Part shown: piece by piece, positions 845 through 64,000 of the stretch
Numbering within the stretch: position 1 is the first letter of the stretch
Layout of the letters: each line of letters begins with the position of its first letter
NCBI GenBank assembly: GCA_905178155.1
Contig: CAJINV010000004.1
Coordinates: 7,034,358-7,098,357 of the forward strand
Reading direction: 5' to 3'
DNA length: 64,000 nucleotides
From: Amoebophrya sp. A120
Taxonomy: Eukaryota > Protista > Dinoflagellata
Made by a program: the position numbers and the translations under genes
Notes under the pieces: model-generated
The model's input: only the letters and a program-made list of their open reading frames with translations
Told to the model about the DNA's origin: nothing
Database searches by the model: none

Positions 845-3800
845 CTAGAACGAGCTCGGTGGTCTCGACTGTGGCCGCGGCTGGTAGCTGGCAGCGGACA
901 GTGGCACCCGGCCCGAGTTCACGTGCACCGCGAGCAGTTCGTGTGTGTTTGGAAATGGGTCCTCGATAGATTCGTCGTCGTTCTTCATTGTCGACCGGGA
1001 GAGTTCCTGGTCCAGAAACGAGTTGTACCTGGTGTTCCCCAAAGTGTCGCGCAAGGATTCGTGCAAGATCATTTCCCGCCGGCTTCGTTCGTGTTTCGAC
1101 TTGTGTTCGCCGAGCAAGGCGTCACTGCCATACCGGACGTTAGCCGTTCCAGAAGACATCATGGAGCTTGTTCCACCGAGCGGAAGGGAGGTCGCCGAGC
1201 CACCTGCTGGAATTATGACATTACCACCTCCTACCGCGACACCGGACCCGCTACCGCTACCGCTCTGCTCCGCGGTGAGTTGCCCGGCGGGGACGGGTAG
1301 TGGGACCGCCGTGCCCTTCATGTTTTGGTATTCGTTCAACCCGAGGGTGTCGCTCGTGTGTCGGGGCAGGTAAAACTGGGTTTGCCACCTGGTGGAGGAT
1401 TCGATCAAAACGTCTTGCTCCGTTACCACATCCCAGTACCCCGGGTCGCTCTGCCGCGATTCTAGCAGCTCCCGCTTCCGCATGTCGTATACCTCCGATT
1501 GTGGGTCGAAGAACTGCGAGTAGTTATCCACTGCAAGAGTATCGCACTCGTATATTATATGCCAGGCTTACATAAACAGATCTTTTTCTTATACCTCAAT
1601 CGGCACGACAAATTCCAAGTTGCTTCTCGAGAAAGTTTGTCATGCGATTTTTACAACTCGTACGATACTTTTGCATTGCATAGTGGTCTTCCTCCTGCAG
1701 TTCCCGGCTCGCCATCTCCTCTCGTTGCTGCTCTAACAAATGTTATCGTACGAAAGAGTGTTTCACATGTATAAAGGGATTTTGCGAGTTTTGCGATCAC
1801 AAGTGTGATTATACATGATCACAGAGAAAATTTATTTGCCATGGGAGGGTAGAAGTTCTAGGGGAAAACACAGCTAAAAATTTGTTCTCTTGCATCTGTA
1901 GCAAGACAAACACTTCTGAAATACATTTTCTGCATTGCAAGTTTACAGGGAAACAGTTTTTTCTTGCGATAAATGTGCCGGAGGGATCACCGCTCCGACG
2001 GTAACTGGGACTTGGATGTCCTCCGGTTGCTGCGCCATCTGCACTATACATTGCAAAAGTTGTATCGTACTAGTAGTTCTTGTAGTGCAAATTGCATAAC
2101 AAAGTAAGTAGGTCAGCACGATCACAATTGAATTTGTAAAAAGTAGTCATGCTGCTCTAGCTTATGCTTAGGAAGAAGATTTGTCGCGCCTTCTGCAATT
2201 GCACAAGTACGATAAACAACTCGTTTTGCAATGCATATGCACCTTCTTCTTCCTATCGCTGCGCGCCTTCTGCAGCGCGGGCCCCGGCTGGGACACGCCA
2301 GCCGAAAGGGCTTGCGCGTTTGCGACGGGGATGGCCGGCGCGTTAGACTCCTGTTCGTAGGTTATCGCGTAAAGCCGGTCGGCCACGTCCCTTCTGCGGT
2401 GAAACGCGGAGACGAAGAGAGGTGTGCGGCCCTCGTGGTCCACAACGCGGGGGAGCAAGAGTTTTGAAATGTCCATAAACTCCGTTTGCAAACCGCTACC
2501 GTGGTTCATCATATTACCCGGTGATGAACCAGACCCTGGCGGCGGGGAACCGCCGTGCGGGGCTGTACTATCCTGCTGCGCACCACCTGCTCCCTTCGAG
2601 GTTCTTGTCATGGTGCTCGCGAAGGTTTTGTCTTCGTGGACACTCACCCCGGTGTTGACATAGGTTCGTCTTCTGATCCCGTCGCTCAAATCCCCTCCTT
2701 TATTCCCCCCAAGCGTCAGCATGCCCGCCATGCGCGCCGCTTTTTCCCTTTCTTCCGTTACTTTCTGCTGGTATTCTACCTGCAACAAAAAATCCACCAT
2801 ATCTAACCGCCCCTTCATCGCCGCTAGATGCAGGCACGTGCAGCCGAAGTTATCCCTTAGAAACAAGTCGATCGATTTCGAACTGCTCGCCGCCGCGCCC
2901 CCGATCGGGATCTCCGGGTATCCGCAGAGGATCTTCACCGCTTCTAGGTCGCCCGATTGCACCGCACAGTGGAGACCTAAGCCCAAATACAGGTTCGGGC
3001 CCGGGACGGTCTCGATGTGGGAGGAAGCGTCGATTTCCTTGATGTCCAAAGCGACCGTGGGGTCCTGCATCAAAGCTAACGACTGTTGCGTGAAAGAGGG
3101 TTCGTTGGTCTGGTTGGCGATGCTGCTGTATGCATTGCAAAAGTATCGCATTACTAGTATAAATTGCATGACAAATTTTGGCAAAAAGGAAAGTGCAATT
3201 TGTAATGCTGTTTTGCCCTAGGAAAAATATTTGTCATGCATATGTGCAATTAGTACGAGTACGATACTTTTGCACAGGATATGCTGTCGTGCTGGGCGTT
3301 TAAAACGCTCATGTCCACCGCTAATCTGTTTATGGATTGCAAAAGTGTCTGGGTCTGGATGATTGCAACTTGTCATGCGAAATCCGAATCATGCAAAAAT
3401 CTGTGTTGCATGAGTGCCGAAAGCTGTCCACTTTCAACCAAGTTGCGAGGGAGTTTCTCATGCTGGATAGGCATCACAGATACCTCACAGAGTCTGTCGT
3501 GCTAGGTTCCGCATTCCAGACCTCATGGGTCATGAAAAACCTGCATGACAAGCTTACACTCTTCCAGACCCAGACATATTTGCAGTTCATACTGTTATTC
3601 CCAGGACCACCTCCACCCGGAGGACCCGCTGCGCCGGTCGGACTAACTATGGGCGAATTGGTGCCCTCGTTGAAAAACGCGGATGGAAATTCTTCACTCA
3701 TACTGGGCTGCAACCCCGCCGCGCCTGCCCCTTTCACGTGGAACTCAAAGTCGCCCCCTCTGGTCCAGTGTCGGATGGGTAACGGCAGCCCCTCGTCGTC

Positions 3801-6800
3801 AAACGCCTGCGTCAGCATTTTTTCGTCCTTGTCCGCACGTTCGGTATCGTGAGAAAAAAGCTGTTACAGTTACACACTCTGATGGAAGACAAGCAAGACA
3901 GACAACCTCTGTCATGCAGAAAATGCTTACCAGCCTCATTGCGTTCGTGTTTTCCCTATGAATCTGAGATTACAGGTTTTCTTTGCCATGTCGAGCAACT
4001 TTGTCACGCAGAAATTCCAACAAATGCGTAACTGTAACACTTTTTTCCTCTGATATTCGGGGATCCGGGACCACTGGGAGAGACTATTGTTGTACCGGTC
4101 GCGATCAATCAAGCCCTGTGGCCCCCCGTTTTGGTTCATCGGAAGGTCGATGCCGGTGGACGTTTGCTGCTGGGGATCATGACCGTGGTGCTCTGCTGTT
4201 TTTATCCCAGCGTTAAAGCTATTTGGGCCGTCGTCGAACCACTGTTGGTAATCCTCACCAACGACCGCGGCTTGATTTCTATTTCTTCCCGCCGGTGGAC
4301 TTGTTTTTATCTTTCCTGTCGCTGTAGTTGTTCCCTGTCCCTCCTCCAGAATCGCCCCTACTATCTTGCCGCCCGGTAGTTTGGGCGACGTCGGGCTCTT
4401 TCCGTGTACTTTGGGACTCAAATTCTCCCGCGACTCCGGTCTCGGTGACCTGGACGGCGGGCTGGCTTTCGTGCCCTGTTCGGCCGCCGCGGCTTGCTTC
4501 GGCTCGGGGGAATTCGAGGAAACGCCTTCTCTGTTAGCGGCTGATGTTGTCGAGGACAAATGCACCCGGGTTTTGGTGTCCCTGGTCGCGGGGCGGGAAA
4601 CGAGCGGGACGTTGGTTTCCGTGGTGATCACCGACATGCTGTTCAAATTCGTCGAGTTATCTTCGTACGCGATCCCCTCGCAACTGACGCAGCCTAGCTC
4701 TAGCAGCTTCGGGTCGTGCGCGTCGAGCGTCGGGGCGACGCCGTCTTCTAGTAGGTCGGCAATGCCGCCGTGGTCGCCGTTGAAAATGCAGTTTCGCAGC
4801 TGCTCCGCTTTGTCGTGCCTGCCGAAAATGTTGAAATGATGAAAATGAGATTTTCCCTGTCGATGCACCTTCGGCTATTGAACAAAGAATTGCATTTAGA
4901 ATGCCAAGAACGCTGCAGATGAAAATTCCAACTCTATACCTCCTCACACACTTCAGTTTTTTGTGCTCCGGGATCAACTTTCTAAAAATCGTCCACTCCC
5001 CGCACCAATTGCAGACCACCTCCCGGTTCACGCACAGTATCCTTTCGTGGTTCTCGATGTCTTTCACTTTCATGCTGAGCCCGCACTTGCCGCAAGTCCA
5101 GGGTCGGTACTCGCACTGTGCCATGTGACTGTCTAAGTCGTGGTAAATCACCACGGCGTTGCACAACGGACAAAACACTTCCCGGTTCACGCAGGCCTTG
5201 CAAATGTGCTCGTTAAGGTCCCTCGCGAGTAGCACCATGCCGCAATCTAAACTACAAGTTACCTGCCGCATGGAACACGAGGTCTCCTTGTGCTCGGCCA
5301 GCCGGCAATCCTGAAACCCTTCCTCCGTGCAGAGCGGGCACTGCACGTAGCGGAGACGGGTCTTGAAGTTGTAGGCTGATGTGTTTATTAAAGTTGTTGT
5401 ATTGTCATGTGAAACAGGATGGAATCACAGTCACACTACTTTTGTCATGCACAAAGACGCAACCGCAACACAATAAAAATCATTTACTCAATTTGTCGTT
5501 TCTGATCGGGAAGCACGCGTCTATTTTCCCCCGCGTCACCGTCATCCCTACCACTTGTGACCGCACCCAACTTCTCGTACCGCTCGTCCCACCCGCTGCG
5601 CCCATGTTTTTCAAGTATTTCAACAACGTCTCATACTTCTCATCCAACCGCACGATCCCGCCCGCGCCGAAATTTGTTCCCGATTCTATCTGGTCCGCGT
5701 ACAACTCGTGCCCTTCGTGTCTTCTAAAGTGCCGGGTCCGCGGGATCAGTTGCGAAGCGATTTTGGGGTGCAGTAGCAAAATATCCGCAACCACCGGCTG
5801 CCCGGTGCAAGAGAGAATGATCACCTGCGGATGGATCTTCCCGCTGTTGCTCGCGTCGGGCCCGCCCAACTGCATCACCTCTGAGAGATTTTGCAACACC
5901 TTCGCCTCGAAGGCCCAGGGATCCTGCAGCCAATCCGCGTAGGGGAGTTTGGTCACGAGGAGAAACCGGAGGAAGAGCTGGGTGTCGCGGAAGAGATTGG
6001 GGTGGTTGTAGGAAAGAGGTTATCCTGTGCAAAAAGTATCGCACTCGTACGAAATAAATGGTAGTACAGCATGACAGATCTACAGGTCCTACCTAACTCA
6101 GCATTACAAATTCCATTCTTCCTTCTGGAAAAATTTGTGATGCAGTTTTTACGTACGTAAATACGATACTTTTGCATGCAATGCATAATGGCTTACCCAG
6201 TATTCGCATCTGCTTGTGGTCTGCCTCTTCCACACGGTCAATGCGCTTCTTCAACCTTTCCTGCTCTTCTTTCTCCTCGACGTAAGATTTCAGGTCGGCT
6301 TTGAACGCGTCGTCTGCTTCGCACCCGATACAATAACCCGCCATCTCGCACCTGGTAGATAAGTTTATGGCCTTTGTCATGCACAACACGCAAACGGATC
6401 ATATATTTGAATGTCATGTACCACACCACGACCACATCTTCAAAGCGAATTCGAATACGATATAATTACGCACTTATGTCCACATCATAGAACCTAAACC
6501 TTGTAGTACCTTTTCCTGCACGTGATCACCTTGTAGGTTGTCAGCTCCTTGCACTCGATGCAGGGCGCCGGTCGGGTCCAGCAGAGCTCCTTGCAGGGAA
6601 TCGGCGTCATCAAATGCCCGTTCCGGCAGGTCCGGCCATCCATGTCCGTGAAGAGTTCTTTTCTCAGCTCCTCGGTCCCATGCATCTTACACTCGACCAC
6701 ATCCAGGGTAGCGAGGGAAACCGCGTCGCGGGCGAGGAAGGAATGGAGTAGTTTGCGGAGGAGGAGAACGAATTCACCTGGTTTTTGAATATAGTAAATC

Positions 6801-9108
6801 GAGATTTGACATACCACACTGCTTCAAGGCATATTTGCACACGATGCGGTGGAACAATACAGTTCGAGGAGACAGCTCTGCTGCACAAGATGAAAAAGGT
6901 GTTAATTCGACAATCTTAAGTCCGTCCTCGCGAAACGAAATTTCTTCTGTATCTGGTGCATCTGGCTGGCAATTTCTATAGACATACCTGCAAGAACAAA
7001 CCCGTTGAAGATATTGGTGGATTTTTAATCATCACGGGCTGAGCAGATAGTTGTAACGCGGTAAGAGCAGGTGAGCAAGGAGCATGCTGCAGCGCATGAG
7101 GCGGCTGCAATGATTTGCGGCACGGGACAAGCATTTAACTCAATGGGCGCGGGGCGGCGCGGCGCGTGGGCAGCCAGTGTAGAAGACGTTTTTACGACAT
7201 CATTCAAATAAACCTGTCCCAAAAATAATGCTCAACCGGAATCGAGTCGTATCGGTATTTTCTCTTCTGGACATAGTACTTTCATTTTCTCGTGAACAAA
7301 GCTCATAGCATTTGCAACACATGCGGTCTTCTGCATGACAAAGAGAAAGAACTACGCACGAGATCAAACTATGTATACCTTCATCCTCTTCGAAGCCTGC
7401 TAATTTGCTCTTGCTACTCGCCCTAGAACTGGACGCGGAGCTGGCTTTCTGTCCCTGCGAGACGACGCCATCAACGACAGTAGAACCATGCTCCTTCAAT
7501 CCCGCTAAGTCAAACACCTGGCCGCCACTGGCGCCGACTAGCTCCTCGAGGTTTAGGGGCACGTTGGTCGTGATATCGAAATCTTTGACCTCCAGCTTGT
7601 AGCCGAGATAGACCTCTTTCACCGTGTGACTCGACTGGTACACGATCTCCTTCCGGTAGTCTATCACTTCGCCGGGGGCCCTGATGGGGTAGTTGATCTG
7701 ATATCAATCTCTGTGGTATGCCCATGCAAAGGCATCGTGCAGTTTTGAGACAGGGCCGCGTCCTTAGCTCCTTGTAACATTCGTTCTTGCATGACAAAAT
7801 CGAAATCCACATCACGATCACAATCGCAATTTGCGTGACAGAACCGCTCCACCAAGTACTTATACCTGAATCTTATCTTCGCTACAGGTTTCCAGATTTC
7901 AAAGTGGAGGAATCCCTCCGGAGTTTTGTTTGGCTTGACGTGGTAGAGTTTCCTCTTTTTCAGTTCTTCTTCGTCGACTTCCAGCAGTGCCTCCTCCGCT
8001 GCCTGGTCGTTGGACGCAGGGACCGGGTGGGGCGAGAGCTGTGAATGATAGAACTTCTGATCTTTTTCATACTTACCGTCGTTTCTCATGTGTGAAGGAC
8101 TGGACTGTCATGTGTGAAGGACTAGAAGTAGTAGTAGATGCTTTTGGTTTATGGAAAGAAGAAAGTTTGTCACGACAGTCACTGAGTTGCAGGTTTTGCA
8201 TCACAAATGTTTCTTTCTAGCATCGCAGCTTTTGCTTGTCTTGCAGACACACTAGGGAAATCCCGTAGAAAATTTAAACTCGACTGTGTCTGTGATCCAT
8301 TTTTACGCATGACAGACAGTTTTGTATTGGAAAATTGCCCATGGCCATGAGGGGTCGTGAGAAACTCTTTTTGTTATGGTTTTGTAAAAGAACATTTCTA
8401 TACCTCCATCAAATCGTCCTTCGGAGGATCGAAGCCGTGCGTTCGCTTCAAATAGTAGCGGTCCAGAAACGTCGCAAAATCCACGTGTTCCTGTCTTAAG
8501 TGGTCGTACAATTCTGTCGGCGCGTCGGTCAACTCGTCGATCGTGAGGACGTCCGGGACGATCGTCCTTTGCCCGAAGCAGAACATCGCGGATTGGATGA
8601 CTTGACTCCCGGCGCCATTCGCTTCGGCGGAGGGCCTGAGGGAAAAAAAGTTGATGTGCAATTTTCATCGTAGCAGCTGCTGCAGAACGAACTTACAGTC
8701 ATTTCTCGTCCTGCCCCTGCAGTACAGCTTTAGTCTCATAGTAGAAGATTTTGCAAAAAAAATAAAAAACATCGTATACAGCTTGTTTTATAACGCTTAG
8801 TAGTTCATCTACCTCGCATAGGAATATAATCCTCCCTTCGAGTGCACTGGCGCGAGGACGGGAATGTAGCCTTTTCTGTTTCTGTCCAGGATGGGCGGAA
8901 GCTCCGACTGCTCTTCCGCCTCTTCCGCGACAGTCGTGAACCTCGTTGCCAAACCTAACAAGTCGTAGAAGTCCTTCGGGATTTCAATCGTTTCCAGCCC
9001 AAACTCATCCTGCAGAACGTCTATGGTGGAGGTCTCGGCTTTCTTCTGCCGCTGAAGTTTCCTCTGCTGCTTGTCAAACAGCCCCTTGGCGAGGGAGGCG
9101 ACCCGCAT
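845..9108 (-). CDS. Multi-exon gene: protein with TRAF-type/Cys-His zinc-finger repeats and ankyrin repeats
   Basis: 4940-5375 encodes repeated C-x2-C...H-x3-C units (CPLCTEEG..HKETSC; CSLDCG..HICKAC; CGKCG..HERILC). 2238-3128 has ankyrin motifs (LHCAVQSGDLEAVKIL, GCTCLHLAAMKGRLDMVDFLL, GRTPLFVSA). Frame verified by hand from 6777 to the stop at 845 across 7 TIR elements and 3 GT-AG introns. Junctions between 6780 and 8400 and the ATG at 9108 are less certain. Confidence 0.75.
1525..1682. mobile_element. Introner family A (TIR TATnnnnTGCAAAAGTATCG), 158 nt
   Basis: TATCCACTGCAAGAGTATCG...CGATACTTTTGCATTGCATA; flanks GTAGT/GTGGT (1 mismatch); removal joins EEDH to SQFF. Confidence 0.85.
1744..1971. 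mobile_element. Introner family F, 228 nt
   Basis: TATCGTACGAAAG...TTTTCTTGCGATA; TSD AATGT; homologous to 22584; frame restored. Confidence 0.9.
2045..2237. mobile_element. Introner family A, 193 nt
   Basis: TATACATTGCAAAA...TTTTGCAATGCATA; TSD TGCAC; frame restored (KKVQMAQ). Confidence 0.9.
3129..3281. mobile_element. Introner family A, 153 nt
   Basis: TIRs; TSD TGCTG; frame restored. Confidence 0.92.
3331..3591. mobile_element. Introner family B (TIR TATnnnnTGCAAAAnTGTCTGGGTCTGGA), 261 nt
   Basis: TIRs; TSD CTGTT; frame restored. Confidence 0.92.
3845..4055. mobile_element. Introner family G-like, 211 nt
   Basis: TATCGTGAGAAAAAAGCTGTTACAGTTA...TAACTGTAACACTTTTTTCCTCTGATA; TSD TTCGG; frame restored (RIPE-RADK). 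Confidence 0.9.
4819..4939 (-). other. Canonical GT-AG intron, 121 nt
   Basis: GTATAG...GGCAG; joins KCVRR to HDKAEQ in frame. Confidence 0.75.
5376..5487 (-). other. Canonical GT-AG intron, 112 nt
   Basis: GTAAAT...ATCAG; joins NDKL to TYNFKTR in frame; contains TGTCATGC and GCAACACA motifs. Confidence 0.8.
6021..6187. mobile_element. Introner family A, 167 nt, degenerate TSD
   Basis: Family A TIRs; flanks GAGGT/ATGGC; removing element plus 5 nt restores frame. Confidence 0.8.
6352..6509 (-). other. Canonical GT-AG intron, 158 nt
   Basis: GTACTA...ACCAG; yields TCRKRCEMAGYCIGC (Zn-finger-like spacing). Confidence 0.7.
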
Positions 9109-10751: not shown

Positions 10752-13700
10752 TTACGATATGCCCGCTCCTGAGCTTGATGCTGATTCTGATCCACCAGCA
10801 TTATCACCGTGAGCAGGGGCACTACTGCCAGCGGCCTCTTGTTGGCCACCACCTCCATCATTTGTTCCTCGCCCGTCATTGAAAAACACGGTCAGGGATC
10901 CATCTGCGTTTTGCCGAAAAGTAGCAGCTGGGGTAGTTGTATCATCCGCAAGAACTGCAAGCACTTCTTGCGGCTCCGCTGATGGCTGCCCACTTGAGCC
11001 CCCATTTTGTGCACCAGCAGCCAAAGCTGAGTCACTCGGTGCTGGTGCAGAAGCAACGTGTTCACCCGATCCTGTGCTATTCATCGTCAACTCGTGCTCC
11101 TCTGCTCCGTCGCCACTCCCAGTTTGCAGCAACTGCGGTGACCAGCCGGAGAGGTCCTGTGAGAGTTGCTCCACCTGACCAGTTATGAACTGCAAAAGTA
11201 TCGTACTCGTATAAATGCATTACAAATTTCCTCAGCATGAGAAATAAAATTTGTAATGCAGATTTACCTTAAAAAGAAGACTTGTAATGCATGATTGCAA
11301 TACGAGTACGATACTTTTGCACAGGATACCAGTTCCACTACTTGTAGTACCTCCACCCATCTCGTTCTGGCGCCGGAGCCATTCGGTTGTGCCGTCCGAG
11401 ATGTATTGCTGTTGCGGTGCTGGTGGTGCGGGGCTTGGGCCTGGCGATGGCGGTGGCTCGTCGCTGAAGTAGGGCATGTTATCGGGAAACGCGCCTTCTT
11501 GCTCACCATCTTCCTGTCGCACTTGTCCTCGTCGCGTACTTTGAATGCCTGCAGGATCACCGGTACCTCTGCTGCTGCTGTCCTCCGTGTTGGCATGCGG
11601 TAGAAGTGCCCTGCTCTGGCTTCCATCTTGCGGTTGCGGTGGTATGAAGGCATTTAGAAGACCTCCCCCTCGTCCCGGTTCTGCAGCTGGCGGGGCGAGG
11701 CCAAGAGCGGTATTCCGAAAGATGGAGGTTATGTCTCGTGATGATGATGAATTACGGCCTGGAACATCAAGTCCTCTTCCTCCTGCAAAGCGATCTCGTC
11801 TATCAGACGGATCCAGATCGTCCACATCATGCTGATTTCCTAGCCTTTCCTCGAAGTGGTTCCGTAAGTCGTCCACTTTCCTTCTTCGCTCGATATCCAC
11901 TATCATTAAGGTTGAGTCCACAAAGTCAATTTCTCCAAAGGCAAGATCTCTTGTGGTCACCAATTTCTCCATATGGATTGCAAAAGTGTCTGGGTCTGGA
12001 AGAATGGAAGGTCTGTCATGCTCTGCTAGCATGACTCCAAAGTCTGTCATGCTCGTTACCCAAAAGCCCCACCTTTCTGTCATGCCGAAACACGGTTTGT
12101 CATGCAGAATACGCAACACCTAGCAAGTCAGAAACTTGTCATGCTGAGCCATCACTTGTGGCGTCCTCAGGATTCGCCAAACAGCATCGCAAGTTTCCAG
12201 ACCCAGACATTTTTGCATTTGATAGTCCAGTACCGCTACCCAATCGATGTCGAGAACGGAAGTTGTGTCGCGGTCTTCAGCTCTTCCTTGGGTGGTGGAA
12301 GGATAGTTGCTCTTGATGTCGATCATCCGCTCCTGCCGTTCTCGCATGGCGTCCCTGAAATCCTGCAGTTCCATCATGTAAACCAATTCCGCGAGGAACT
12401 GGTACCCGTTTAGCGCGCGCTTGAACCGATATCCACAGGAAATTTCCCGCACACGTACAAATGCTGCTTCTCCATAACAAAACTTACTTGCCTTCAATCC
12501 TAGTCTAGCATGACAAGTTGGACACTGCAAGGTAGACCGAAGTTTGTCATGCATTTTGTGCATGTAGTACGGGAAACGATGAAAATCTGTACTGCATAAC
12601 CGCAAGTGCCGCTTCACAAACTCAGGCAGGTGCTCCTCCAGCCTTCTGTCTTCGAGATGCACGCAGCCCGCATGGATCAACATGTGCAGGCCCAGGCCGA
12701 AGGGCGAGGCGATCACGTTGCTATTTTCTCTTTCCGGTGGTGGGCCCCGAAGTCGCTGGCGCAGCTTCGTCGCCTCGTCGAATGCAATGGAAGCCTGATA
12801 ATTACTCTCGATATTTCTTGTGCGGCGACTATCATCCCTTAATATCGTTTCTGCCTGCAGCACCTGCTGCAGGACCTGCACTTCCGTTACCAGCCACAAT
12901 CGCAACGCGTCTCGCTTCCTTACCAGCCACTGTTTCTGCTTTTGCAACGTCCGAGTTCGCCCCTTTCTACTTTTGAAAGAGTTTCTACCGTGCGGCGCGG
13001 ACGCGGAGGAAGGTGGTCGTTTTGCGAAGATGTTGATGTTGCTGCCGTCTTTAGTTCGTGATCTTTTTGAAGATGCAGTTGTCGTAGATTTTGATTTTTT
13101 GTCTCTACTACTACTACTCGAGTTGTAGATAACTTCCGCTGGTGGCGTAGCGAACGGTGTTTTCCAAGGATCGGTCAACGAATCAACTTCTTCGAAAATT
13201 CCCTTCAGCTGCGTTTCTTCCATTTTGAAAATCCGCCGGGTCTCTTCTTCCGGAATGTCAAACAGATTGCGGCTCGAGAGCAGGCGGTTGACGGTACTAC
13301 TACCAGTCGTGAAGATGTCCTCCAACCCATGATCCTCTACCTCTTCGTCACTATCTTCTTCCTTCCCCAGTAGCTGCTGCCAGGCGTATTGCTGCCGTTT
13401 CTGGAGAAGCTGTCGCTTTCTTTCCTCTTCGGGGATTTGGTGGAGTTCTTCAAAACGCACTGACGGTGACTTCTTCATCCCTGTAGTTGCGCTGGAAGAT
13501 GAAGGATTCGAACCTCCTCCTTCTGCACCCTGATTCGGCATGTTGAGCTGCTCTGTGGACGCTGAAAATGATGGATCGTTGTCTTTGTCAGACGGAGTAT
13601 TGTACAAGATGTTGTAGTCCTTGCGCAATTCAACTTCGTATTTCCACAGTTCCGCTGCGATATCCAACACGCCCTTCCATCCCGGATCGGCGCCCCGGCC

Positions 13701-16700
13701 GTCGTTTTCGAATAGCTCACTGTTGCACAGCGCGTCGAGGCCTCTGTAGGGCGCCAGAGGCCCCATTCTGCTCGTGCTCGTCATCTCGTCCACAGGGTTG
13801 TGCGTAGCCGTGTTCGTCATCCTTCGATTTCTCACCACATTTTCCTCGTCTTGCTGTCTGGTCGGCGGCCAGGTTGGAAACGGATCAACGGGTCCAGGCG
13901 GTCGGAGACTTCTAGTCTGAGGCCGTTGCTCTTGCTGTATTTGAGCATTTGGCTTCGGCGTACTAGCCGGGATGAAATTGGCTGCCAGCTTTCCACCGGG
14001 CAGCGCCGCCGCTTTAGATGTCGGGGGGACAAAAGGAAAAGGAACGGTTTGTGCTGCCTGTTCAGGATTTGCAGCTCCTTGCAGACCATCTGCTTCCTGT
14101 GCACCCCGGGCGGCCTCTTCTTGCGCCGCGGCACGACTTGCAGCCGCCGCCGCGAGACTCGCGAAGCTCAGCGCTGGTGCTGTGGGCGCACTTTCCACTT
14201 GTTCTCCAGGGCTCGTCTTACCTGCAGGCTTGGGCTGCACCGCCGGCCACTTGGGCGTCGGCGTGGGTGGTCGAGGCGTTGGTTGGACAACTGCCGTGTG
14301 AAATCCTAGTGGTGCCAGCGGGCCAAGTTGGAATGGCGCTTGTTCCTGCAACACGACACTAGCAGAACTGCTACTACTGCCGCCTCGGGTAGGTGCACTT
14401 GCGCCATGAAAATGGTCCCCGCCAAAAACAGAACTCGTGTGGTCCCCACGACCCCTCCAGCCTCGGGGTAGGTCTTGCGACAACACCTGCCGCGGCCCAG
14501 GGGCGCCGTGGTGTGCGGGGCTGTTGGGCTCTTCGCTCCGTCGAGAAGCTGCAAACGAGGCAGGCAACCGGCGACGAGAGCGCGACGCCGGAGACCCAGA
14601 TCGCGAGGATGGAAAGATACTTGCCGCACTCGCACGCGCTTCCTCCTCCTCCGTGGTGTCAGCATTGCGACGCCCTCTAAATTCTTCTTCAGTGTTGTTA
14701 CCGTCTGGGCCGCGGGGCGTCGCTCTTGCAGCCGGTTCGTCGCCATCACTCGTAGTACCTCTTGTTCGCCGTGAATGATGTAGTTCATCGTGCCTACCAT
14801 CATTTTCAATAATTTCGCCACCACGAGATGGCACACGCAAAATCGGCTCGCTCGCGCTTCTGCGCATAATTCTCCTGCCGGAGCGACCTCTGGGTCCGGT
14901 AGGTGGATGAAGTAATGCTTCTTCCTCCTCTTCTTCCTCACTCACAGCGCTGCTCAGATCTAGCCTCGGCAGCATCGACTTCAACCTCGTCCCTAAGAAC
15001 CCTTCTTCATTTCCAGCACCGTGTCCGTGTGGCGGGAGCACAACATCCCGAATCATGGTCGACGTGTCTGTCCGCTTCTCGAAGGGCCAATCTTGCTATG
15101 ACAGTGCACAACTCCCCCTCCCCTCATTTGTGTAGCATGAACAGCAACACAAGTGCGGGCAAAGATGCAGCTTTTGCATGACAAATTACTAGAGGACTGT
15201 AGTGCTGTTTTGGATTCCGGAATTTGTCATGCAAACAGTGACACAAGGCAGCGACTGGGTTTGGGATTTTGCATGACAGATAAGGCGGGGGGGGAGCTGT
15301 GCACATTCATACTTGCTCGAGTCTCTCCGACACGACCAACTGCGCTTGATACCCCGTCCGGAGCTGCACCACCATGTCCTTATCCTGAGTAAAACCGTAC
15401 CCACGCCAGAGTTGTAATGCAGATTTGCAAAGACAGGAAGACTTGTAATGCGCATCCCCATGAGAGCCATTTCCAATCGTGTTTTGGAATTTGTGATGCT
15501 GTGAACAGGATGAGCAGATGAATCTGTGATGCGACTGCACTTGCTAACCTGCACTACACTTCATAGTGCAACTTGTCATGCGTGACTCACAAAACTCCTA
15601 GGTTTGTGTTGCAAAATCCTCATCCTGACTCTTGTGTGGGCACGTTTTTACTCAGGATAGTCCTTTCGCAGGAACCAACAGGTCCACCGTGGTTTCAAAA
15701 GCACCTCCGCTGCCTCGGACGTCCACCTTTCGGAAGTTCCCGCGGTCGGTTGTTTCCCCAAAAACGCAATCAAGTGCAAATGTGTCTGGGTCTGCAAGAT
15801 TCCGAGACTTGTCATGCAGATTTTCCATGATCCATGTCGTCTGGAATGCAGGACCTGGTATGACAGATTCCGCGAGATCCCTATGATCATGCCTATCCTG
15901 CATGAGAAACTTGTTCCTTACAACCTGGTCAAAAGTGGACAACTTTTCTTCGCATTCATGCAACACAGATTTTTGGTTTGCACGATCCAGAATTAGCATT
16001 ACAAGTTGCATCCTTCCAGACCCAGACATTTTTGCTATGCATAAACGCAATCTGCGATGTTTTCTCCTTCCAAACTGCGATCTGCTTGTCGTCCTCGAGT
16101 TTGATGTAGTTGAGAACAAACGCCTATCAAGTGCAAAAGTGTCTGGGTCTGGAAGAGTGTAGACTTGTCATGCAGATTTTCCATGACCCATGAGGTCTGG
16201 AGTGCGGGACTTAGCATGACAGACTCTGCGAGGTCTCTGCCATGCCTATTCTGCACAAGAAACTCCGTTCCAACTTGGTCAAAAGTGGACAGCTTTTGGC
16301 ACTGACGCAGCACAGATTTTTGCATGCTTCAGATTTACCAATGACAAGTTGCAATCTTCCAGACCCAGACATTTTTGCAATTCATAAAGCCAGCACCTTC
16401 AACCGCTTCAACCCAATGACAAACTCCCGCATTTTCGTGGAGTCCGAAACCTTGCTGGTAATTTCCATCGGCTTGCGCTTCTTCAACGCCGATTTACTGC
16501 TGACCACGTATCCTGTGCAAAAGTAGCGCACTCGTATTGCAATCATGCATTACAAATCTTTATCTTAAGGCAAATCCGCATTACAAATTTTATCTCTCAT
16601 GCTGAGGAAATTTGTAATGCATTTATACGAGTACGATACTTTTGCACAGGATACCACGCGCGCCGGAACGATTTGTGGTGCCTGGATTCTTGTGGTTCTA

Positions 16701-48287: not shown

Positions 48288-48555
48288 TCTGGATGGTTTC
48301 TTTGCAGTTCCTAGGAGGAGGAACTTTTACAACACAAGGGTGTTTTGCGCTTGGGTAGCGTTTTTAGCACGATCATGAAACATGTTTAATGCAAGAATTG
48401 TACATGTACGTCGACGAGGTCTTGGAATCAAATGAATGACACCCGACGTCGTGTGCCACATAGATTTGGATTTCCATACCTCAGTCTCCGTGCAGTGACG
48501 TAAAAATATTTATTCGTTAATTTTTCCACGACGTTTGCCTTTACTTTCACGGGAG

Positions 48556-48575
48556 CACACACACACACACACACA
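48556..48575. repeat. (CA)10 microsatellite upstream of the giant gene
   Basis: Direct read. Confidence 0.9.
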
Positions 48576-49688: not shown

Positions 49689-52600
49689 CTATTTCGAAGA
49701 CGGTCCGCCTCCGTTCGCAGTAGTCCCTTGCTTTTGGTTGTTCGACGCCGAAGTTGTTCCAGCGGGAGTTTTCTTTTTGTAGTACTGATAGCTGTTATTT
49801 CTTTCGCCGCTCTGTCTTTTCTGCTCTTGTTGACCATTTGCATTTCTTTCCCGGGTATGAACTGCAAAAGTATCGCACTCGTATAAATGCATTACAAAAA
49901 CTCAGCATGAAAAATGAAATTTGTAATGCTGATTTGCCTTCATCAGAAAAAAAATTTGTGATGCAAGACTTGCATTTATACGAGTACGATACTTTTGCAC
50001 AGGATACCGGGCTGGAGGTTGGTAAGAGCTGTCTTTGCTGTCCTTGTTTGCTCCTGCGCCACTCTCGTTTATGCATTGCAAATTTGTCTGGGTCTTGAAA
50101 GGTTGAACTTGTATTGCGTGTCCAGGACTCCAGAAAAATCTGTATTGCATAAAAGCAAGAAAAGCGCCACAAATTGTTTGTCATGAAAAAGCACAGTTTC
50201 TAATGCGCACTAAGCATGAGAGACAAAGCGTTTGAAAAATTTGTCATGCAATACTGCACTTAGAGACGCACTCACTCATGACTATTCAGCATTACAGGTT
50301 TCCAGACCCAGACATACTTGCATTTCATATCGTTAGCGCTGGAGCAGTTGTGGAACTCCTCTGATTCGTCTGCGTGGTCCGCTGGAATCATGGGTTGTTC
50401 CACCTGATTTCTATCTTTCTTTGCTCCGCCGGCTTTTTTATTTCCAGTCGTACTTGTTGAACTTGTTGTATCAGCGGTAGCAGCTCCACCTGATGCGCCG
50501 CCCGGCTTACTGTTACTTTCCACTTGATCCAAATTTAAACAACTCCTCACTATTGCCGGCATCACGGCTCTCGGAATCGCCTTGTTGTGGAGAATACTGA
50601 ATCCGAGCTCGCACATCTCCAATACATTGACGGTGACAACCGCACTGTTGGCGGGGTTGACCCACTGATTGGAATAGCTTTGTTGCTCCGAGCCTGCTGT
50701 AGTAGAAGTACTGTTGTTCATTTTTCCGCCACCATTCGCCTTAGAAGCACCAGAGGAAGATTTCTGTTGCTGATCTGGGAGGTTGCTAGAAGAGGAACTG
50801 CTAGATGAGCTACTACTTGCTTTGCTGTTCCCCACCAACCCGTACCCCTCCACGCCGAACTTGCTCAGCCCCTCTTGCTGTTTGTTGTTCATTTTGTGCA
50901 CCTCTTTCTGTTCGTACTGCAGAAAAAAATCAAACCGCAAAGCCGGAATCTCGTCGTCTAACGTTTGGGTGCGGACCTGGGATAGATGCGAAATAGGTTT
51001 TATTTTTCGTAAGATGGAGATGCATGACCATGACGTAACATTTACTCTTATGAGCCAGGTGGACCAATTTTTTTTGGAAAAAAATTCAGAATTGCATATA
51101 ATTTCTGCTGGTCCAAAGATGGCACCATGATGCTGGCTCTTTACGTAGTACAAGAGCTGCGTCAACTTGATACTACAAATCGCTATCCAAACTCCTATAT
51201 AGTACCCAATCCAGCAGTTCTCGCGCCGTCTCCTTGCCCATTTCGATCGCCTTGTCCAGAGCCTTATCAACTGCAAAGATGTCTAGGTCTGGAAGAGTCG
51301 GGGCTTGTCAAGCACATTTTGCATGACCCGTGAGGTCTGTGATGCTGGTGCTAGCAACACAGATTTTTTGGGAGCCTCTTGATGCTAATTACGCAGGAGA
51401 AATAACGCCCTCTCCGCGTGCCAAGAGCTGAGTCCTCGTGCTGCTCATGCAACACAGATATTTTTAGACTCCGCAGACAGCATTACAAGTTCCACTCTTC
51501 CAGACCCAGACACATTTGCAATCCATAAGCCTCCTTGTCATTGTGGAACCCGGTGGCCAACACCTGGTCCTTGGTCAAATAGTATCCTGTGCAAAAGCAT
51601 CGTACTCGTATTGCAATCATGCATTACAAATTCTTTTCTTAAGGTCAATCCGCATTACAAATTTTATTTCTCATGCTGAGGAAATTTGTAATGCCTTTAT
51701 ACGAGTACGATACTTTTGCAGTTCATAAATAGTTGAAGTCGCCGAATTCCTGGTTCGCTTTGATCTTGCCAAATTTCGTGAACATGACGAACTCGCACTT
51801 GTTCTCCACAAAATACAGCCGCATCTCCGTCGCGTGGTGAACGAATTCTTGCACGATGACGTGGTCCAGCGTGTGTGCCTGCCCCACAAAGTTGGACGTG
51901 ATCTCAATCTGCTGGGTCAGGTCGTTCAGAGCGGAGACCAGGTTGTAGTTCCCGACGTCTTATCCTGTGCAAAAGCATCGTACTCGTACAAATCGCTGTC
52001 ATGCATTACAAATCCCTTTCTTTGGGGGAATCCGCATTACAAATTCCATTTCTAATGCTGAGGAAATTTGTAATGCTATTTATACTAGTACGATACTTTT
52101 GCAATGCATACGTCTTCCCGCCACAGCTTCACGTCCAACGCCTCCCAACTGTAGCCCAGCTTCTATGGCGTTCTCAAACGTTACATTCTCAGCTGTTACA
52201 TGGATTTGTAATGCAAGAACAGCAATAGTGAAAGTGGCATTATTGCAGCTTTCGCATCACAGATTTTCCACAGATTTAGATGCTGTTTAGCCCTTCGAAG
52301 ATTTGTCATGCTGCCCACCTTGATCAAGTGGAGGCTGATGGCAATTTTGCATGACAAATTCATGTAACAGTTGAGAATGTAACAGTTGAGAACTCCATAG
52401 CTTCCCGACGCCCTGCACGATCTTCTTGGCTGTGATATTTTTACATTTATGTGGTGTTTATATTTGTTGGGTTGATGGGAAAATAATTCGCGATGCTGCA
52501 TTTATTGCATTTCATACCACCTGATGCCCCCTCCGCCGTGGGTGTGAAAGGAAAATCCGTCTTGCACGACGATCACATCTGCAACAAGTGCATCATGGCC

Positions 52601-56824: not shown

Positions 56825-56945
56825 ACATCATATAATCATAATATCAAAATTATAAACGCGGCGTACTTGTAGTATCTCTGGCTCCTCCTGCTGGGCCCCT
56901 TCGCTCACAAGTTTGGCAACACCCGACACAAGAACGCACCACATT

Positions 56946-61027: not shown

Positions 61028-64000
61028 TCAACCGTCGAGAATCTCGTCTTCATCGTCCTCCGCAACATCGTCCTCAAACGAATCTTCCCCCCCAACAGCC
61101 TCGTCATCCTCCTGTGCCCACAACTGTTCCACCTCACTCCATGGCAGCGGAATCTCGTCGCCATACTTTTCCTCCAGCGCCGCCCGGAACTTGTCGACTA
61201 CCCCGAGGTCGTGCAGGATGTCGTTTTTGAACTCGCACGCTTCCATAATCATTTCCAGCCGGCACTTGAGCGGCTTGAAGTCGTAAACCAAGTACGGATC
61301 GTCTTCGAATTCGGTGCCGACCAGGTTCATCCGCCGCCGCGGGTGCTCCTTGTTGGGGACTGCTCTTCTCGGTAAGTGTGGATGGATCAACCGCCACACG
61401 ATGTGGTCCAGAGCCCGTAACCCATCCGCGAAGTGCTGGTCGAACAGTTCCGCGAGACGTAACGAGTTTGCTCGATAGTTTTTCTTTTGATCCGACTGTG
61501 ACTCTATAACGGGCGTTTGTGGTTGTACCGCGGAAGTGGCCGCATTCGTACTGGTTCTGTGCTGGGTGATGTCGTTGTTTTCGTCTTCGTTTTCATCTTC
61601 TTCATCACTGTCATCTTCTTCTTCTTCTCCACCAACATCGGATGCACCAAAAAATCCATCCCTCTTCCACATGTAGTCGCAGGTATCGGCATAGTGTGCC
61701 ACTGCGGCTTGCGCTTGCAGTTGAATTCTTTCTTTTGTAAATTCCTTCTCGTCCAGAGCTTTGCAAAACGCCAACAGCTCGTCCTTGTTCTTTTCGTTGC
61801 AGCTCGATTGCCGCTCTAAGTTGTGGACCAACATCTTGAACGCGAGGTCACAGTCTCCGTCCCCGTTGTAGATCCCTCGGAAGAAATCGAACTTTTTCAA
61901 GCCGGTAAGAAAGAGAACGCCAATCTCCTCCGCCGCGGCCATTCCGTCCATATTGGACACGGCAAAGATCAGTTTGCAGAGCTCCTCCTTCTGTGTCTCC
62001 ACAAGCGCTTTTCGGTCTGCGTCTCGCCGTATCAAGTGTAAAAGTGTCTGGGTCTGGAAGATTGCGAGATTTGTCATGCATATTTCGGATCACGCAAATG
62101 GCGTCTGATGCAGGCAAAAGCATCACAGGTTTTGAGCACGCCTCATGATGCCTCTGCCGCATGAGAAACTTCCTACTTGCGTGCCAAGAAATGGACAGCT
62201 TTTGGCGCTCATGCAACACAAATTTTTGTGTGTTCCAGAGTTTGCGTCACAAGTTCCAACCCTTCCACACCCAGACATTTTTGCATTTGATACGCCGTGA
62301 CTCGCTCGAGTGCATCGAGTCAAACCACTTGAAAGCAGCGGCATCGTCGTGCCGGAACAGCTGGACCCGCAGCCGTCTCGCGTATCTCTCCCGCTGCTCC
62401 CACGCGAAATACCGCCCGCCGAAAAGCTTCTCGTGCTTGGCCCATTCCCGCTGCGGGAGCGAGAAGATGGCCGTCGTAATTGCCAAAATCACACCGATAT
62501 GGATTGCAAATATGTCTGGGTCTGGAAGATTCCGAGATTTGTCATGCGGTTTTTACAAGCTCTGCCAAGTCTGGAATGCAGGGCGTAGCGTCACAGATTC
62601 TGCAGCCCCTTGGTGATGCCTACTCTGCATGAGAAATGCCCTCTCAGCATGGCCAGAAATGGGGACCTTTTGCAAGTCATGCAACACAGATTTGTGTATG
62701 ATCCGCAACACGCATCACAAGTTTGCATCCTTCCAGACCCAGACATTTTTGCGTTTGATAGCTGATCTGCTTTTTCCGGTTGTAGAGCTCGTCGATTTTA
62801 TCCCGCGCAGTTTCATCGCTTTCGTATCAAGTGCAAAAAAGTCTGAATCTGGAAACTTGTAATGCTCGGTTGGGAATAGTGAATGCTCTGCAATGCACAG
62901 CCCAGCATGAGAAATATCTGCGCTACTTAGTGTTGCGCTCTTCGCATGACAAGCTGCGTTTTTGCATGACACCAGGCAAAAGGCTCTCTTCTTGGACACG
63001 CATCACAAACTCCCCAGTCATGCCAGACAAGCATGACAAACTTGCATCCACATTCTTCCAGACCTCCCAGACATTTTTGCATTTGATATTTCGGCTTGTT
63101 CGGCTTGTCCCCCGAACGGCAACCACGTTTCTGGCAGAAGCTCAGGACAGTATTTCTTCGCCTCTTCGTATTCTTTCAACCCGGCGTGCGCTTTCAGCTC
63201 CAGCAGCAGGCTCTCGATGACCTCCCAGCTGCGGTCGTATAGGAAGCTTTGACCTTGTTCCAGGGTGAGGTTTTCAAAGACGTCCTGCAGCTGGTCCCCG
63301 AAAGCATCACCACTTTTGAAAACCTCCTCCGCAGGTCTTCCCGCCAAAAATTTCTCGCGGTCGAACTCCCCCGCAGAGATCACGAACTGGAAGTATGGAG
63401 TTGTAGAACGACGGGTTATTTTTCGGCGTTTTTTGTTGTTATTGTTAACGCTTGCTGCAGCAACATCCCGCTGGTCGTCATAGTCATCAGCTTCCTCAGC
63501 CTGATCTCCGTAGTAGTCAATCTCGGTTGCGGGGTCCAAAAACGCCTCTGGGTGATCATGCTCATAGGGAACAAGGCTGTCTGGTGCGGAGGTCCCACGT
63601 GTACTAGTTCCTGTGGACGAGGTAATATTTTGATTGCTCTTCCCTTCCATCGCAACTGCGAGATCATCTTCATCGTGGTAAGGCTCCTCCTGCTCAGCAT
63701 CATTATCATTTTCCCAACACTCTTCTTCATCCCCCGCCCTCCAATACAGCCACTTTAAACGATGGACCGGCGGCCGCAGCTCTTCTTCGGCCAAAATGGC
63801 GTCGAGAATGACGTCTTGGTTGCACAGATCTGCGACTGTTCTTACTTTTGTCGGGTCCACAAGCTGTTCGACGACTTTGGAGCCACTCATGTTACGAATC
63901 TTGATGGTGCGGAGCCGTTTTTTAACATTGGCTTTATTCGAGGAAGTTGTGGAGGTGGAGTTACTGGAGGTGGTTGCAGGAACTGCGTGGTTCGCTGCGT
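61028..64000 (-). CDS. Acidic hypothetical protein, possibly 5' partial
   Basis: ORFs 63018-63890, 62761-62824, 62293-62497 and 61028-62029 join in one frame after removing three family B elements. Confidence 0.75.
62030..62292. mobile_element. Introner family B, 263 nt
   Basis: TIRs; TSD CGCCG; frame restored. Confidence 0.92.
62498..62760. mobile_element. Introner family B, 263 nt
   Basis: TIRs; flanks ACCGA/GCTGA (2 mismatches); frame restored. Confidence 0.88.
62825..63088. mobile_element. Introner family B, 264 nt
   Basis: TIRs; TSD TTTCG; frame restored. Confidence 0.9.

What the first reader, a model, noticed from the sequence alone, without database searches (positions are those of the whole stretch)
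1525..63088. A non-GT-AG intron system: 59 TAT...ATA hairpin elements, 11 families, one 'element + 5 bp' removal rule
Seen: 59 insertions in four genes, each with TIRs (55 with TAT...ATA ends) and a 5-bp flanking repeat (49 perfect). In every case deleting the element plus one 5-bp copy rejoins the flanking exons in frame, in all three phases. Only 2 of the 49 perfect cases can be drawn as GT-AG. Established: inverted-repeat/direct-repeat non-canonical introners were reported in Amoebophrya (Farhat et al. 2021), so the class is not new. Inference: a uniform 5-bp TSD and shared ends across unrelated families point to one transposase superfamily and one scarless excision machinery. No transposase is visible in this window.
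Basis: partly seen in the sequence, partly recalled or inferred. Interest (0 to 1): 0.88.

Follow-up and report, generated by a model that had tools for sequence, protein, structure and literature searches.

The report
Amoebophrya hairpin introns: a hidden splice code
These are the already-published transposon-derived introns of the marine parasite Amoebophrya, each removed together with 5 neighbouring bases; the new point is a likely fixed cutting rule (1 base before the element, 4 after it, with one never-changing U and one never-changing A) that would make their unknown splicing chemistry directly testable.

Summary
I count 62 TIR elements with a 5-bp target-site duplication (51 perfect), all in minus-strand genes. 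A window exon matches a protein named Amoebophrya sp. A120, and Farhat et al. 2021 described these introners, so the class is known.

Removal of element+5 holds at 12 of 12 joints in RNA-like contigs (one sample; 14 elements in the stretch) and at 20 of 20 junctions inside database proteins. In a second assembly the TSD is exactly 5 bp (274 of 349; at most 5 for lengths 3-10).

New here:
- Imperfect TSDs leave one common cut register, intron = N-TAT...ATA-NNNN, if the register is uniform.
- Across 410 oriented copies the terminal TAT/ATA bases are conserved asymmetrically along transcription: intron +2 U and -7 A never vary, while their mirror positions vary 8 and 13 times (p 5e-6 to 2e-4).
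- GT and AG are not enriched.

Best reading: a modified spliceosome uses +2U and a branch A at -7 and measures the 3' cut. This is inferred; no lariat data exist here. No transposase was found.

The parts
845..9108 (-). Gene 1 (protein P0003, 1712 aa; TRAF zinc finger and ankyrin repeats); 7 TAT elements plus introns with GT/AG-like ends
10755..48326 (-). Gene block 2 (its 3' part is P0001, 2288 aa, named Amoebophrya sp. A120); 46 elements; whether it is one gene is inferred
49692..52450 (-). Gene 3 (predicted), 6 elements
61031..63998 (-). Gene 4 (P0002, 739 aa), 3 elements
1525..1682 (-). element, family A, TSD 4/5; protein gives cut offset <=2
1744..1971 (-). element, family F, perfect TSD
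2045..2237 (-). element, singleton, perfect TSD
3129..3281 (-). element, family A, perfect TSD
3331..3591 (-). element, family B, perfect TSD
3845..4055 (-). element, singleton, perfect TSD; homologous proteins align ungapped across the site
6021..6187 (-). element with family-A-like ends, TSD 2/5; protein gives offset >=1
11184..11328 (-). element, family A, perfect TSD
11972..12224 (-). element, family B, TSD 4/5; contig joint skips 258, offset 1-5
12430..12598 (-). element, family G, TSD 4/5; joint skips 174, offset <=4
15097..15311 (-). element, family C; joint skips 220
15381..15659 (-). element, family E; joint skips 284
15768..16043 (-). element, family B, last A of the mRNA 3' end changed, still removed; joint skips 281
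16125..16386 (-). element, family B, TSD 4/5; joint skips 267, offset <=1
16509..16653 (-). element, family A; joint skips 150
17177..17284 (-). element, singleton, TSD 3/5; joint skips 113, offset 0-1
19103..19258 (-). element, family A; joint skips 161
19948..20093 (-). element, family A; joint skips 151
20172..20482 (-). element, family D; no joint seen (low cover)
20541..20842 (-). element, singleton, TAC at the mRNA 5' end; no joint seen (low cover)
21062..21375 (-). element, family D, TSD 4/5; joint skips 319, offset 1-5
21404..21682 (-). element, family E; joint skips 284; reads GT-AG exactly at offset 1
22584..22792 (-). element, family F
24311..24562 (-). element, family B
24644..24871 (-). 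element, family C
26224..26376 (-). element, family A
26441..26616 (-). element, singleton, TSD 4/5 (cut not tested)
26675..26830 (-). element, family A, TAC at the mRNA 5' end
27053..27359 (-). element, family D
27683..27820 (-). element, family A
27881..28159 (-). element, family E
28663..29417 (-). longest element (755 bp), family-B ends with a perfect 30-bp TIR; internal ORF has no Pfam hit
29480..29701 (-). element, family C
30284..30437 (-). element, family A
30525..30674 (-). element, family A
30734..30896 (-). element, family A, TSD 4/5 (cut not tested)
32788..33052 (-). element, family B
35339..35507 (-). element, family H
35582..35739 (-). element, family A
36501..36647 (-). element, family A; reads GT-AG at offset 1
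36718..37038 (-). element, singleton
37717..37867 (-). element, family A
39812..40028 (-). element, family C
40065..40201 (-). element, singleton
40289..40440 (-). element, family A
40737..40932 (-). element, singleton, TSD 4/5 (cut not tested)
41676..41839 (-). element, family H
42150..42314 (-). element, family A
43959..44214 (-). element, family B
44417..44618 (-). element, singleton, weak TIR (10/22), perfect TSD
45776..46038 (-). element, family B
46225..46449 (-). element, family G, middle base of the mRNA 3' end changed
47577..47883 (-). element, family D
49856..50006 (-). element, family A
50070..50329 (-). element, family-B ends
51265..51527 (-). element, family B
51583..51727 (-). 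element, family A
51961..52110 (-). element, family A
52164..52399 (-). element, singleton
62030..62292 (-). element, family B
62498..62760 (-). element, family B, TSD 3/5; protein gives offset <=2
62825..63088 (-). element, family B

Best explanation
These are non-autonomous TIR transposons (Amoebophrya A120 introner elements) that sit in exons between 5-bp target-site duplications and are removed together with 5 flanking bases, likely at the RNA level by the host's own modified spliceosome, which would cut 1 base before the TAT and 4 bases after the ATA, likely using an invariant U at intron +2 and an invariant A at -7 as the predicted branch point. Shown: elements, exact 5-bp TSD, element+5 removal in RNA-like contigs and database proteins, no GT or AG preference, and direction-dependent invariance of those two bases. 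Inferred: a single register for all copies; a lariat at A-7; a 3' cut set by distance (six bases after the branch A) instead of AG; help from the TIR hairpin in bringing the ends together in place of the U1 snRNA that Farhat et al. could not find; mobilisation by one integrase-type DDE transposase not seen here. Both TIRs carry TAT inward, so either orientation supplies both signals and any 5-bp target is restored exactly, which would let the elements insert almost anywhere in exons at little cost.
For: Joints: 12 of 12 skip element+5. Allowed cut offsets intersect only at 1: >=1 at 11972 and 21062, <=1 at 16125 and 17177, <=4 at 12430. Database proteins add >=1 at 6021 and <=2 at 1525 and 62498 and match 20 of 20 junctions inside their span. 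By hand, all 8 constraints would fit offset 1 with p about 0.013 if offsets were random over 0-5. In 410 oriented copies: 5' end T1 410/410, A2 409, T3 397; 3' end last A 402, T 406, first A 410/410; Fisher p 4.9e-6, or 2.2e-4 with two ambiguous copies scored the other way. The contrast is between the same base on the same strand, so strand-biased mutation alone does not explain it, and DNA-level transposase recognition cannot see transcription direction. Orientation method: 61 of 61 correct in the window, 4 of 4 against Pfam-positive ORFs. Both GT-AG-drawable elements fall at offset 1. Predicted canonical donors in the window mostly begin GTA, several GTAT, so N-UAU looks like a donor with a free first base. 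Farhat: U2/U4/U5/U6 and 83 of 89 spliceosomal proteins present in A120, U1 not found. Precedent: the U2 spliceosome removes non-GT-AG introns in Fritillaria. TSD-blind test: 274 of 349 perfect at 5 bp.
Against: No single junction is pinned to offset 1 by itself; the register rests on assuming uniformity over 8 informative sites. Runs X1-X4 are flagged 'RNA? (a guess)', come from one sample and are contigs; the database proteins are not known to be independent of them. No lariat or branch data. By my hand pairing with the recalled U2 GUAGUA motif, the sequence around A-7 pairs weakly (2-4 of 6). There is no preference for G at +1 (111 of 410) or AG at the end (29 observed, 31.9 expected), and no covariation of first and last intron base (p 0.19), which a lightly changed spliceosome might show. 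Euglena's similar hairpin introns are thought to be non-spliceosomal. No transposase was found.
Confidence: 0.55

Rival explanations
1. Same RNA-level element+5 rule, but a non-spliceosomal protein machinery (endonuclease plus ligase, Euglena-like) cuts around the TIR hairpin; U+2 and A-7 are protein contacts and the intron leaves as a circle or linear RNA.
For: Elements fold strongly: median z -6.8 against mononucleotide shuffles, 55 of 60 with at least 8 expected TIR pairs of 20. No GT or AG residue at all. Euglena non-conventional introns have a similar offset geometry (3 nt before, 5-6 nt after the stem) and are proposed to circularise. U1 not found.
Against: G-U mismatches are not favoured over A-C in the TIRs (47 vs 42; 136 vs 156). 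A wobble-preserving change at A-7 is never seen while a pair-breaking T-to-C at the 5' T3 is seen 9 times. Some removed elements have little predicted terminal pairing (12430: 0.0 of 20, yet joined). The invariant bases are a +2 U and an A near the 3' end, the two things a lariat reaction needs (own knowledge).
Confidence: 0.25
2. Spliceosomal or hairpin-guided removal with no fixed register: cuts slide within the duplicated 5 bases and only the total length is fixed.
For: Farhat drew splice positions as variable or unknown; each informative junction alone allows 2-5 offsets.
Against: All 8 informative junctions fit one offset. Position-specific invariance at fixed distances from the element ends suits a fixed geometry.
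Confidence: 0.13
3. The elements are cut out of DNA (ciliate IES-like programmed elimination or somatic transposon excision), and the joined contigs are excised DNA or its transcripts.
For: TA-type ends, TIRs and loss of exactly one TSD copy resemble IES (own knowledge); the RNA label of X1-X4 is a guess.
Against: Contigs of run X5 go from exons into the elements, and none of the 15 joints shown (of 2434) is an element+5 joint. Signals depend on transcription direction. The junction is asymmetric (1+4), unlike symmetric repair of a staggered cut. Farhat reports these as RNA-seq-supported introns in a DNA assembly.
Confidence: 0.04

Closest known systems
Amoebophrya A120 introner elements (Farhat et al. 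2021, PMC7789003)
   Same: Same strain name on the window's protein; IR starts TAT, 7 nt, AAA; DRs of 3-5 nt with a 5-bp example; RNA-supported non-canonical introns; hairpins.
   Different: The paper gives DRs as 3-5 nt and variable, leaves the intron border unknown and rules out general transposase mobilisation. Here the TSD is strictly 5 bp, one register fits, and U+2 and A-7 are invariant. Its figures S19-S25 were not visible to me.
A120 introner families in Gozashti et al. 2025 (PMC12130899, dataset sd07)
   Same: Most A120 families are classed as TIR DNA; fam38 is noted '5-bp TSD, TA/TA Termini', filed Ginger, with homology to LTR elements. In fam2, 6681 of 9716 annotated 5' ends have T second (my sum), in line with N|TAT, though aligner bias confounds this.
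   Different: Automated TSD calls there range from 2 to 11 bp and mechanism calls are mixed (co-opt/carry); no single rule is stated in the 58 of 58 A120 rows seen.
Euglena non-conventional introns (PMC12501133)
   Same: Majority class, non-GT-AG, TIR hairpin close to both ends, direct repeats that blur junctions, cuts offset from the stem.
   Different: Signature N3CDG...CH'GN5-6|R with pairing required; here N-TAT...ATA-N4, no purine rule after the 3' cut and no sign of selection on pairing.
Fritillaria borealis non-canonical introns (via PMC13326754, PMC11282704)
   Same: MITE-derived, with TIR and TSD, removed by a U2-type spliceosome.
   Different: Preferred AG-AC/AG-AT ends and a conserved U1 there; free terminal dinucleotides and no detected U1 here.
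IS3EU/GingerRoot and hAT5 transposons (PMC10045372, PMC12730594)
   Same: IS3EU/GingerRoot have TA..TA (TAYGG..CCRTA) termini; hAT5 makes 5-bp TSDs.
   Different: IS3EU/GingerRoot TSDs are 6 bp (0 of 349 here); no transposase was found to place the elements in either group.

Membership tests
Amoebophrya A120 introner elements | In the A120 genome | tested here: met
   P0001, 100% identical, named Amoebophrya sp. A120
Amoebophrya A120 introner elements | IR begins TAT, 7 variable nt, then 3 or more A | tested here: met
   position counts; definition; families D and a few others lack the A run
Amoebophrya A120 introner elements | Direct repeat of 3-5 nt at the borders | tested here: met
   5 bp: 51 of 62 perfect in the window; 274 of 349 in a second assembly
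Amoebophrya A120 introner elements | Removed from transcripts with non-GT-AG ends | tested here: met
   12 of 12 joints, 1 drawable as GT-AG; the runs' RNA label is a guess
U2-type spliceosomal intron | GT...AG termini | tested here: not met
   11 of 410 are GT..AG at offset 1; AG 29 observed vs 31.9 expected
U2-type spliceosomal intron | Branch-point adenosine near the 3' end | tested here: inconclusive
   A at -7 invariant, 410 of 410; weak predicted U2 pairing; no lariat data
U2-type spliceosomal intron | Lariat intermediate and snRNP dependence | not testable with these tools
   needs lariat sequencing or snRNA blocking
IS3EU/GingerRoot | TA..TA termini | tested here: met
   351 of 373 TAT..ATA; definition
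IS3EU/GingerRoot | 6-bp TSD | tested here: not met
   0 of 349 perfect at 6 bp
IS3EU/GingerRoot | Integrase-type DDE transposase | tested here: inconclusive
   no transposase Pfam hit in 22 window proteins or 126 locus ORFs; only 0.64 Mb seen
hAT5 | 5-bp TSD | tested here: met
   definition
hAT5 | hAT transposase | tested here: inconclusive
   none seen
Ginger / Transib | TGT..ACA or CAC..GTG termini (recalled) | tested here: not met
   ends are TAT..ATA
Euglena non-conventional introns | N3CDG...CH'GN5-6|R signature | tested here: not met
   ends N-TAT...ATA-N4; first downstream exon base A51/C44/G50/T35 of 180; definition
Ciliate IES | Removal from DNA | tested here: inconclusive
   X5 contigs keep the elements, but only 15 of 2434 joints were shown; direction-dependent signals argue against

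The most novel reading that the evidence does not exclude
Amoebophrya A120 runs a U1-independent, AG-independent spliceosome that needs only N-UA at the donor and a branch A, and measures the 3' splice site six bases past the branch. One unrecognised integrase-type transposon lineage (TAT..ATA ends, 5-bp TSD) carries both signals in its symmetric ends, so tens of thousands of insertions in either orientation are spliced out without a trace.
Probability: 0.4. Interest if true: 0.8.

Novelty: already known. Interest (0 to 1): 0.52.

Why it matters
The elements are published, but how they are spliced is stated as open, and even the intron borders were left unknown. A fixed register with an invariant +2 U and -7 A turns that into a one-experiment question: look for a lariat joining the base before TAT to the first A of the terminal ATA. 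If true, it shows a spliceosome that has dropped both GT and AG and sets the 3' site by distance. It would explain how a transposon class can fill about a fifth of this 64-kb window (21%) without changing the proteins, and it gives a direct annotation rule for this genome.

Tried and rejected
- No whole genome is held, so no genome-wide transposase search was possible.
- No listed holder of the stretch is on record as RNA. Raw RNA runs X8 and X9 laid only 23 and 6 reads, on element ends, and say nothing on splicing. Elements 20172 and 20541 had no joint, in a thinly covered part.
- An apparent lack of C at TSD position 5 in the window (4 of 61) did not repeat in the second assembly (44 of 180): rejected as a splice signal.
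- First/last intron base covariation: none (p 0.19). G-U vs A-C test for selection on RNA pairing: null.
- A local codon-score test of +4/+5/+6 chose +5 in only 49 of 62 and missed two joints that one search shows as +5, so it is too noisy.
- Long TIR-bounded stretches (L013, L018, L025, L040, L049, L060, window 28663) show no shared internal ORF and look like nested insertions or chance pairings. Pfam: no transposase family in 22 window proteins or 126 locus ORFs of 260 aa or more.
- The TIR pattern is absent from viral contigs. No Rfam hit in the window. No database protein was returned for the exon next to 26441, so 26441, 30734 and 40737 are untested.
- Earlier scan notes: nothing.
- Dropped rows: 17 of 78 window candidates; 41 of 414 second-assembly copies with TSD below 4/5 and 24 of 373 that could not be oriented.

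Full report
1. Observation. A blind scan for TAT..ATA pairs with at least 13/20 TIR matches gave 118 pairs, 45 with a perfect 5-bp flanking repeat; five block shuffles gave 66-72 pairs each and no perfect repeat. A permissive scan gave 78 non-overlapping candidates, of which I kept 61 and dropped 17 low-scoring ones by eye; 6021-6187 was added later. Of the 62, 51 have perfect TSDs and 58 have TAT and ATA intact. All lie in minus-strand genes, and 0 of 61 lie in the three gaps between gene blocks. Removing element+5 gives ORFs of 3232, 2140 and 1240 aa against at most 966 aa for +0, +3, +4 or +6. Per element, 49 of 62 give a 159-codon open frame at +5 against 4-14 for other sizes; five of the 13 misses were checked and are in frame, eight were not. 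At 65% identity over 70% length there are 8 multi-copy families and 12 singletons, and family A sits in both orientations. A short motif (TGT[GCA]ATGC or its reverse) occurs 177 times, 167 inside the 78 candidate elements.

2. Identity. The exon 12606-15092 is 100% identical to P0001, named 'unnamed protein product [Amoebophrya sp. A120]'. Farhat et al. 2021 (PMC7789003; I saw the abstract, passages, sections 10-12 and supplement legends, not the figures) report that over 60% of A120 introns are non-canonical and RNA-seq-supported, with 8-20 nt IRs beginning TAT, seven variable bases and three or more A, DRs of 3-5 nt (a 5-bp example in Fig. S19), no U1 snRNA and no transposase in A120, and with the intron border position 'unknown'. 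Gozashti et al. 2025 (PMC12130899; passages and 58 of 58 A120 rows of dataset sd07; files 13-14 not searched) class most A120 families as TIR DNA and note fam38 as '5-bp TSD, TA/TA Termini'. The finding is therefore a sample of a published system.

3. Removal. Contigs of four runs (X1-X4, flagged 'RNA? a guess', one sample) laid on 11600-21900 gave 12 joints over the 14 elements there. Every joint skips exactly element+5, and no other joints were listed. Only one of the 12 can be drawn as GT-AG. Contigs of run X5 run from exons into elements, and none of the 15 joints shown of 2434 was element+5. Database proteins P0001, P0002 and P0003 match the +5 junction at 10, 3 and 7 sites, 20 of 20 inside their span; six further elements upstream of P0001's start could not be tested. 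Homologous proteins P0010 and P0022 align without a gap across 3845, and P0010 across 6021; the other sites lie in poorly aligned regions.

4. TSD length. The family-B TIR pattern found 127 loci (578 kb, L001-L127) in one other assembly in the metagenome collection; its relation to the window's strain is unknown. Among 349 full-length homologues picked without looking at the flanks, 274 have a perfect 5-bp duplication; lengths 3, 4 and 6-10 give 5, 1, 0, 1, 0, 0 and 0. The TSD is exactly 5 bp, and its sequence shows no clear base preference.

5. The cut register. Where the two TSD copies differ, the joint shows which copy survives. Counting how many bases of the left (+ strand) copy are kept: 1-5 at 11972 and 21062, at most 1 at 16125 and 17177, at most 4 at 12430; the 12 joints intersect only at 1. 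Proteins add at least 1 at 6021 and at most 2 at 1525 and 62498. In mRNA sense the intron is then N-TAT...ATA-NNNN. No junction fixes this alone; it holds if the register is uniform. By hand, eight random offsets would all fit 1 with probability about 0.013. All tested genes are on one strand, so the flip with gene direction is untested. Both GT-AG-drawable elements fall at this offset.

6. Asymmetric signals. I re-collected second-assembly copies without requiring TAT or a TSD (414), kept 373 with TSD of at least 4/5, and oriented 349 by codon score plus neighbours (method 61 of 61 correct in the window; 4 of 4 against Pfam ORFs). With the 61 window copies (n=410), the 5' end has T1 410, A2 409, T3 397; the 3' end has last A 402, T 406, first A 410. 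Fisher's test on position 1 vs 3 by end gives 4.9e-6; two copies (L035, L066) were oriented by neighbours against their own weak score, a rule I adopted after seeing them, and scoring them the other way gives 2.2e-4. The window copies were found with a scan that tolerates only one change per end. Under the register, the invariant bases are intron +2 U and -7 A. Other TIR positions show at most weak end differences (p 0.015-0.03 at 3 of 25, not significant after correction). G at +1 (111 of 410) and AG at the end (29 vs 31.9 expected) are not enriched. The elements fold into strong hairpins (mononucleotide shuffles, and expected from TIRs), but G-U mismatches are not favoured over A-C.

7. Mechanism. 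Shown: insertion with a 5-bp duplication, exact removal, and direction-dependent need for two bases. Inferred (0.55): the resident spliceosome, with U2/U4/U5/U6 present and U1 not found, uses N-UA as a donor, branches at A-7 and cuts six bases further on without AG. Predicted canonical donors in the window mostly begin GTA, so the TIR supplies a donor minus its G. Fritillaria shows a U2 spliceosome can be retuned this way (PMC13326754 and PMC11282704, passages). Against: weak pairing to the recalled U2 motif and no residual GT/AG bias. Rivals: a Euglena-like non-spliceosomal hairpin machinery (0.25; PMC12501133, passages), sliding cuts (0.13), DNA elimination (0.04).

8. Transposase. None found. 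TA..TA ends match IS3EU/GingerRoot, but those make 6-bp TSDs (PMC10045372, passages); 5-bp TSDs match hAT5 (PMC12730594, passages); Gozashti's fam38 points to an LTR-integrase-related enzyme. I favour an integrase-type enzyme, about even odds, and file the elements under no superfamily.

9. Novelty and verdict. The system is already known. I found no statement of a fixed register, of the +2U/-7A asymmetry or of a branch point in the papers read or in searches (search 84 returned one review; PMC11453091, passages, repeats Farhat). The library lacks most subscription papers (Henriet 2019, Roy 2023 and Huff 2016 were not read), and Farhat's figures S19-S25 could bear on this. Interest 0.52: ordinary as a discovery of elements, useful as a testable splice code for an open question.

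Noticed in passing
window 34079-34837: A second class of inserted element in gene block 2: 759 bp, GG..CC ends with TIRs and an exact 9-bp TSD, with an 81% identical partial copy in L022. It resembles the Mutator-like A120 family in Gozashti's table (fam65). The frame is kept either by element+9 removal or by a GT-AG cut that adds two residues; in the latter an A also lies at -7. Not tested with RNA.
   Followed up: partly
all elements, e.g. window 24311-24562: An 8-bp internal motif (TGT[GCA]ATGC or reverse) recurs in unrelated families, arranged forward-reverse-forward-reverse along the element, so it could form inner stems or be sub-terminal transposase sites; 76 vs 90 copies by strand, no clear bias.
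   Followed up: partly
window 5374-5488, 6351-6508, 7680-7864, 8039-8403: Gene 1 introns with GT/AG-like ends (from the P0003 exon map) hold the same internal motif, and 8150-8375 has 75-77% copies in L020 and L035: possibly old elements that became, or landed in, canonical introns.
   Followed up: partly
window 19670-24099: Database model P0001 appears to start near 19670, but the spliced frame stays open to 24099 (3232 aa) and contigs join 19948, 21062 and 21404, so the model may be truncated at its 5' end.
   Followed up: partly
L018:3862-4492, L049:765-1461, L060:9991-11566, L025:628-1599: Long elements with normal family ends and extra internal DNA, probably nested insertions; no coding homology seen.
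   Followed up: partly
window 24562 and 28663-28713: A few raw RNA reads of run X8 (same species label, no exon cover) match family-B TIRs and run on into other sequence, hinting that another isolate carries this family at other sites.
   Followed up: no
TIR position 5, both ends: T is never seen at TIR position 5 in 820 ends, although C is common there; unexplained.
   Followed up: no
window 52450-61020: 8.6 kb without any TAT element; four ORFs of 204-327 aa plus one more have no Pfam hit.
   Followed up: no
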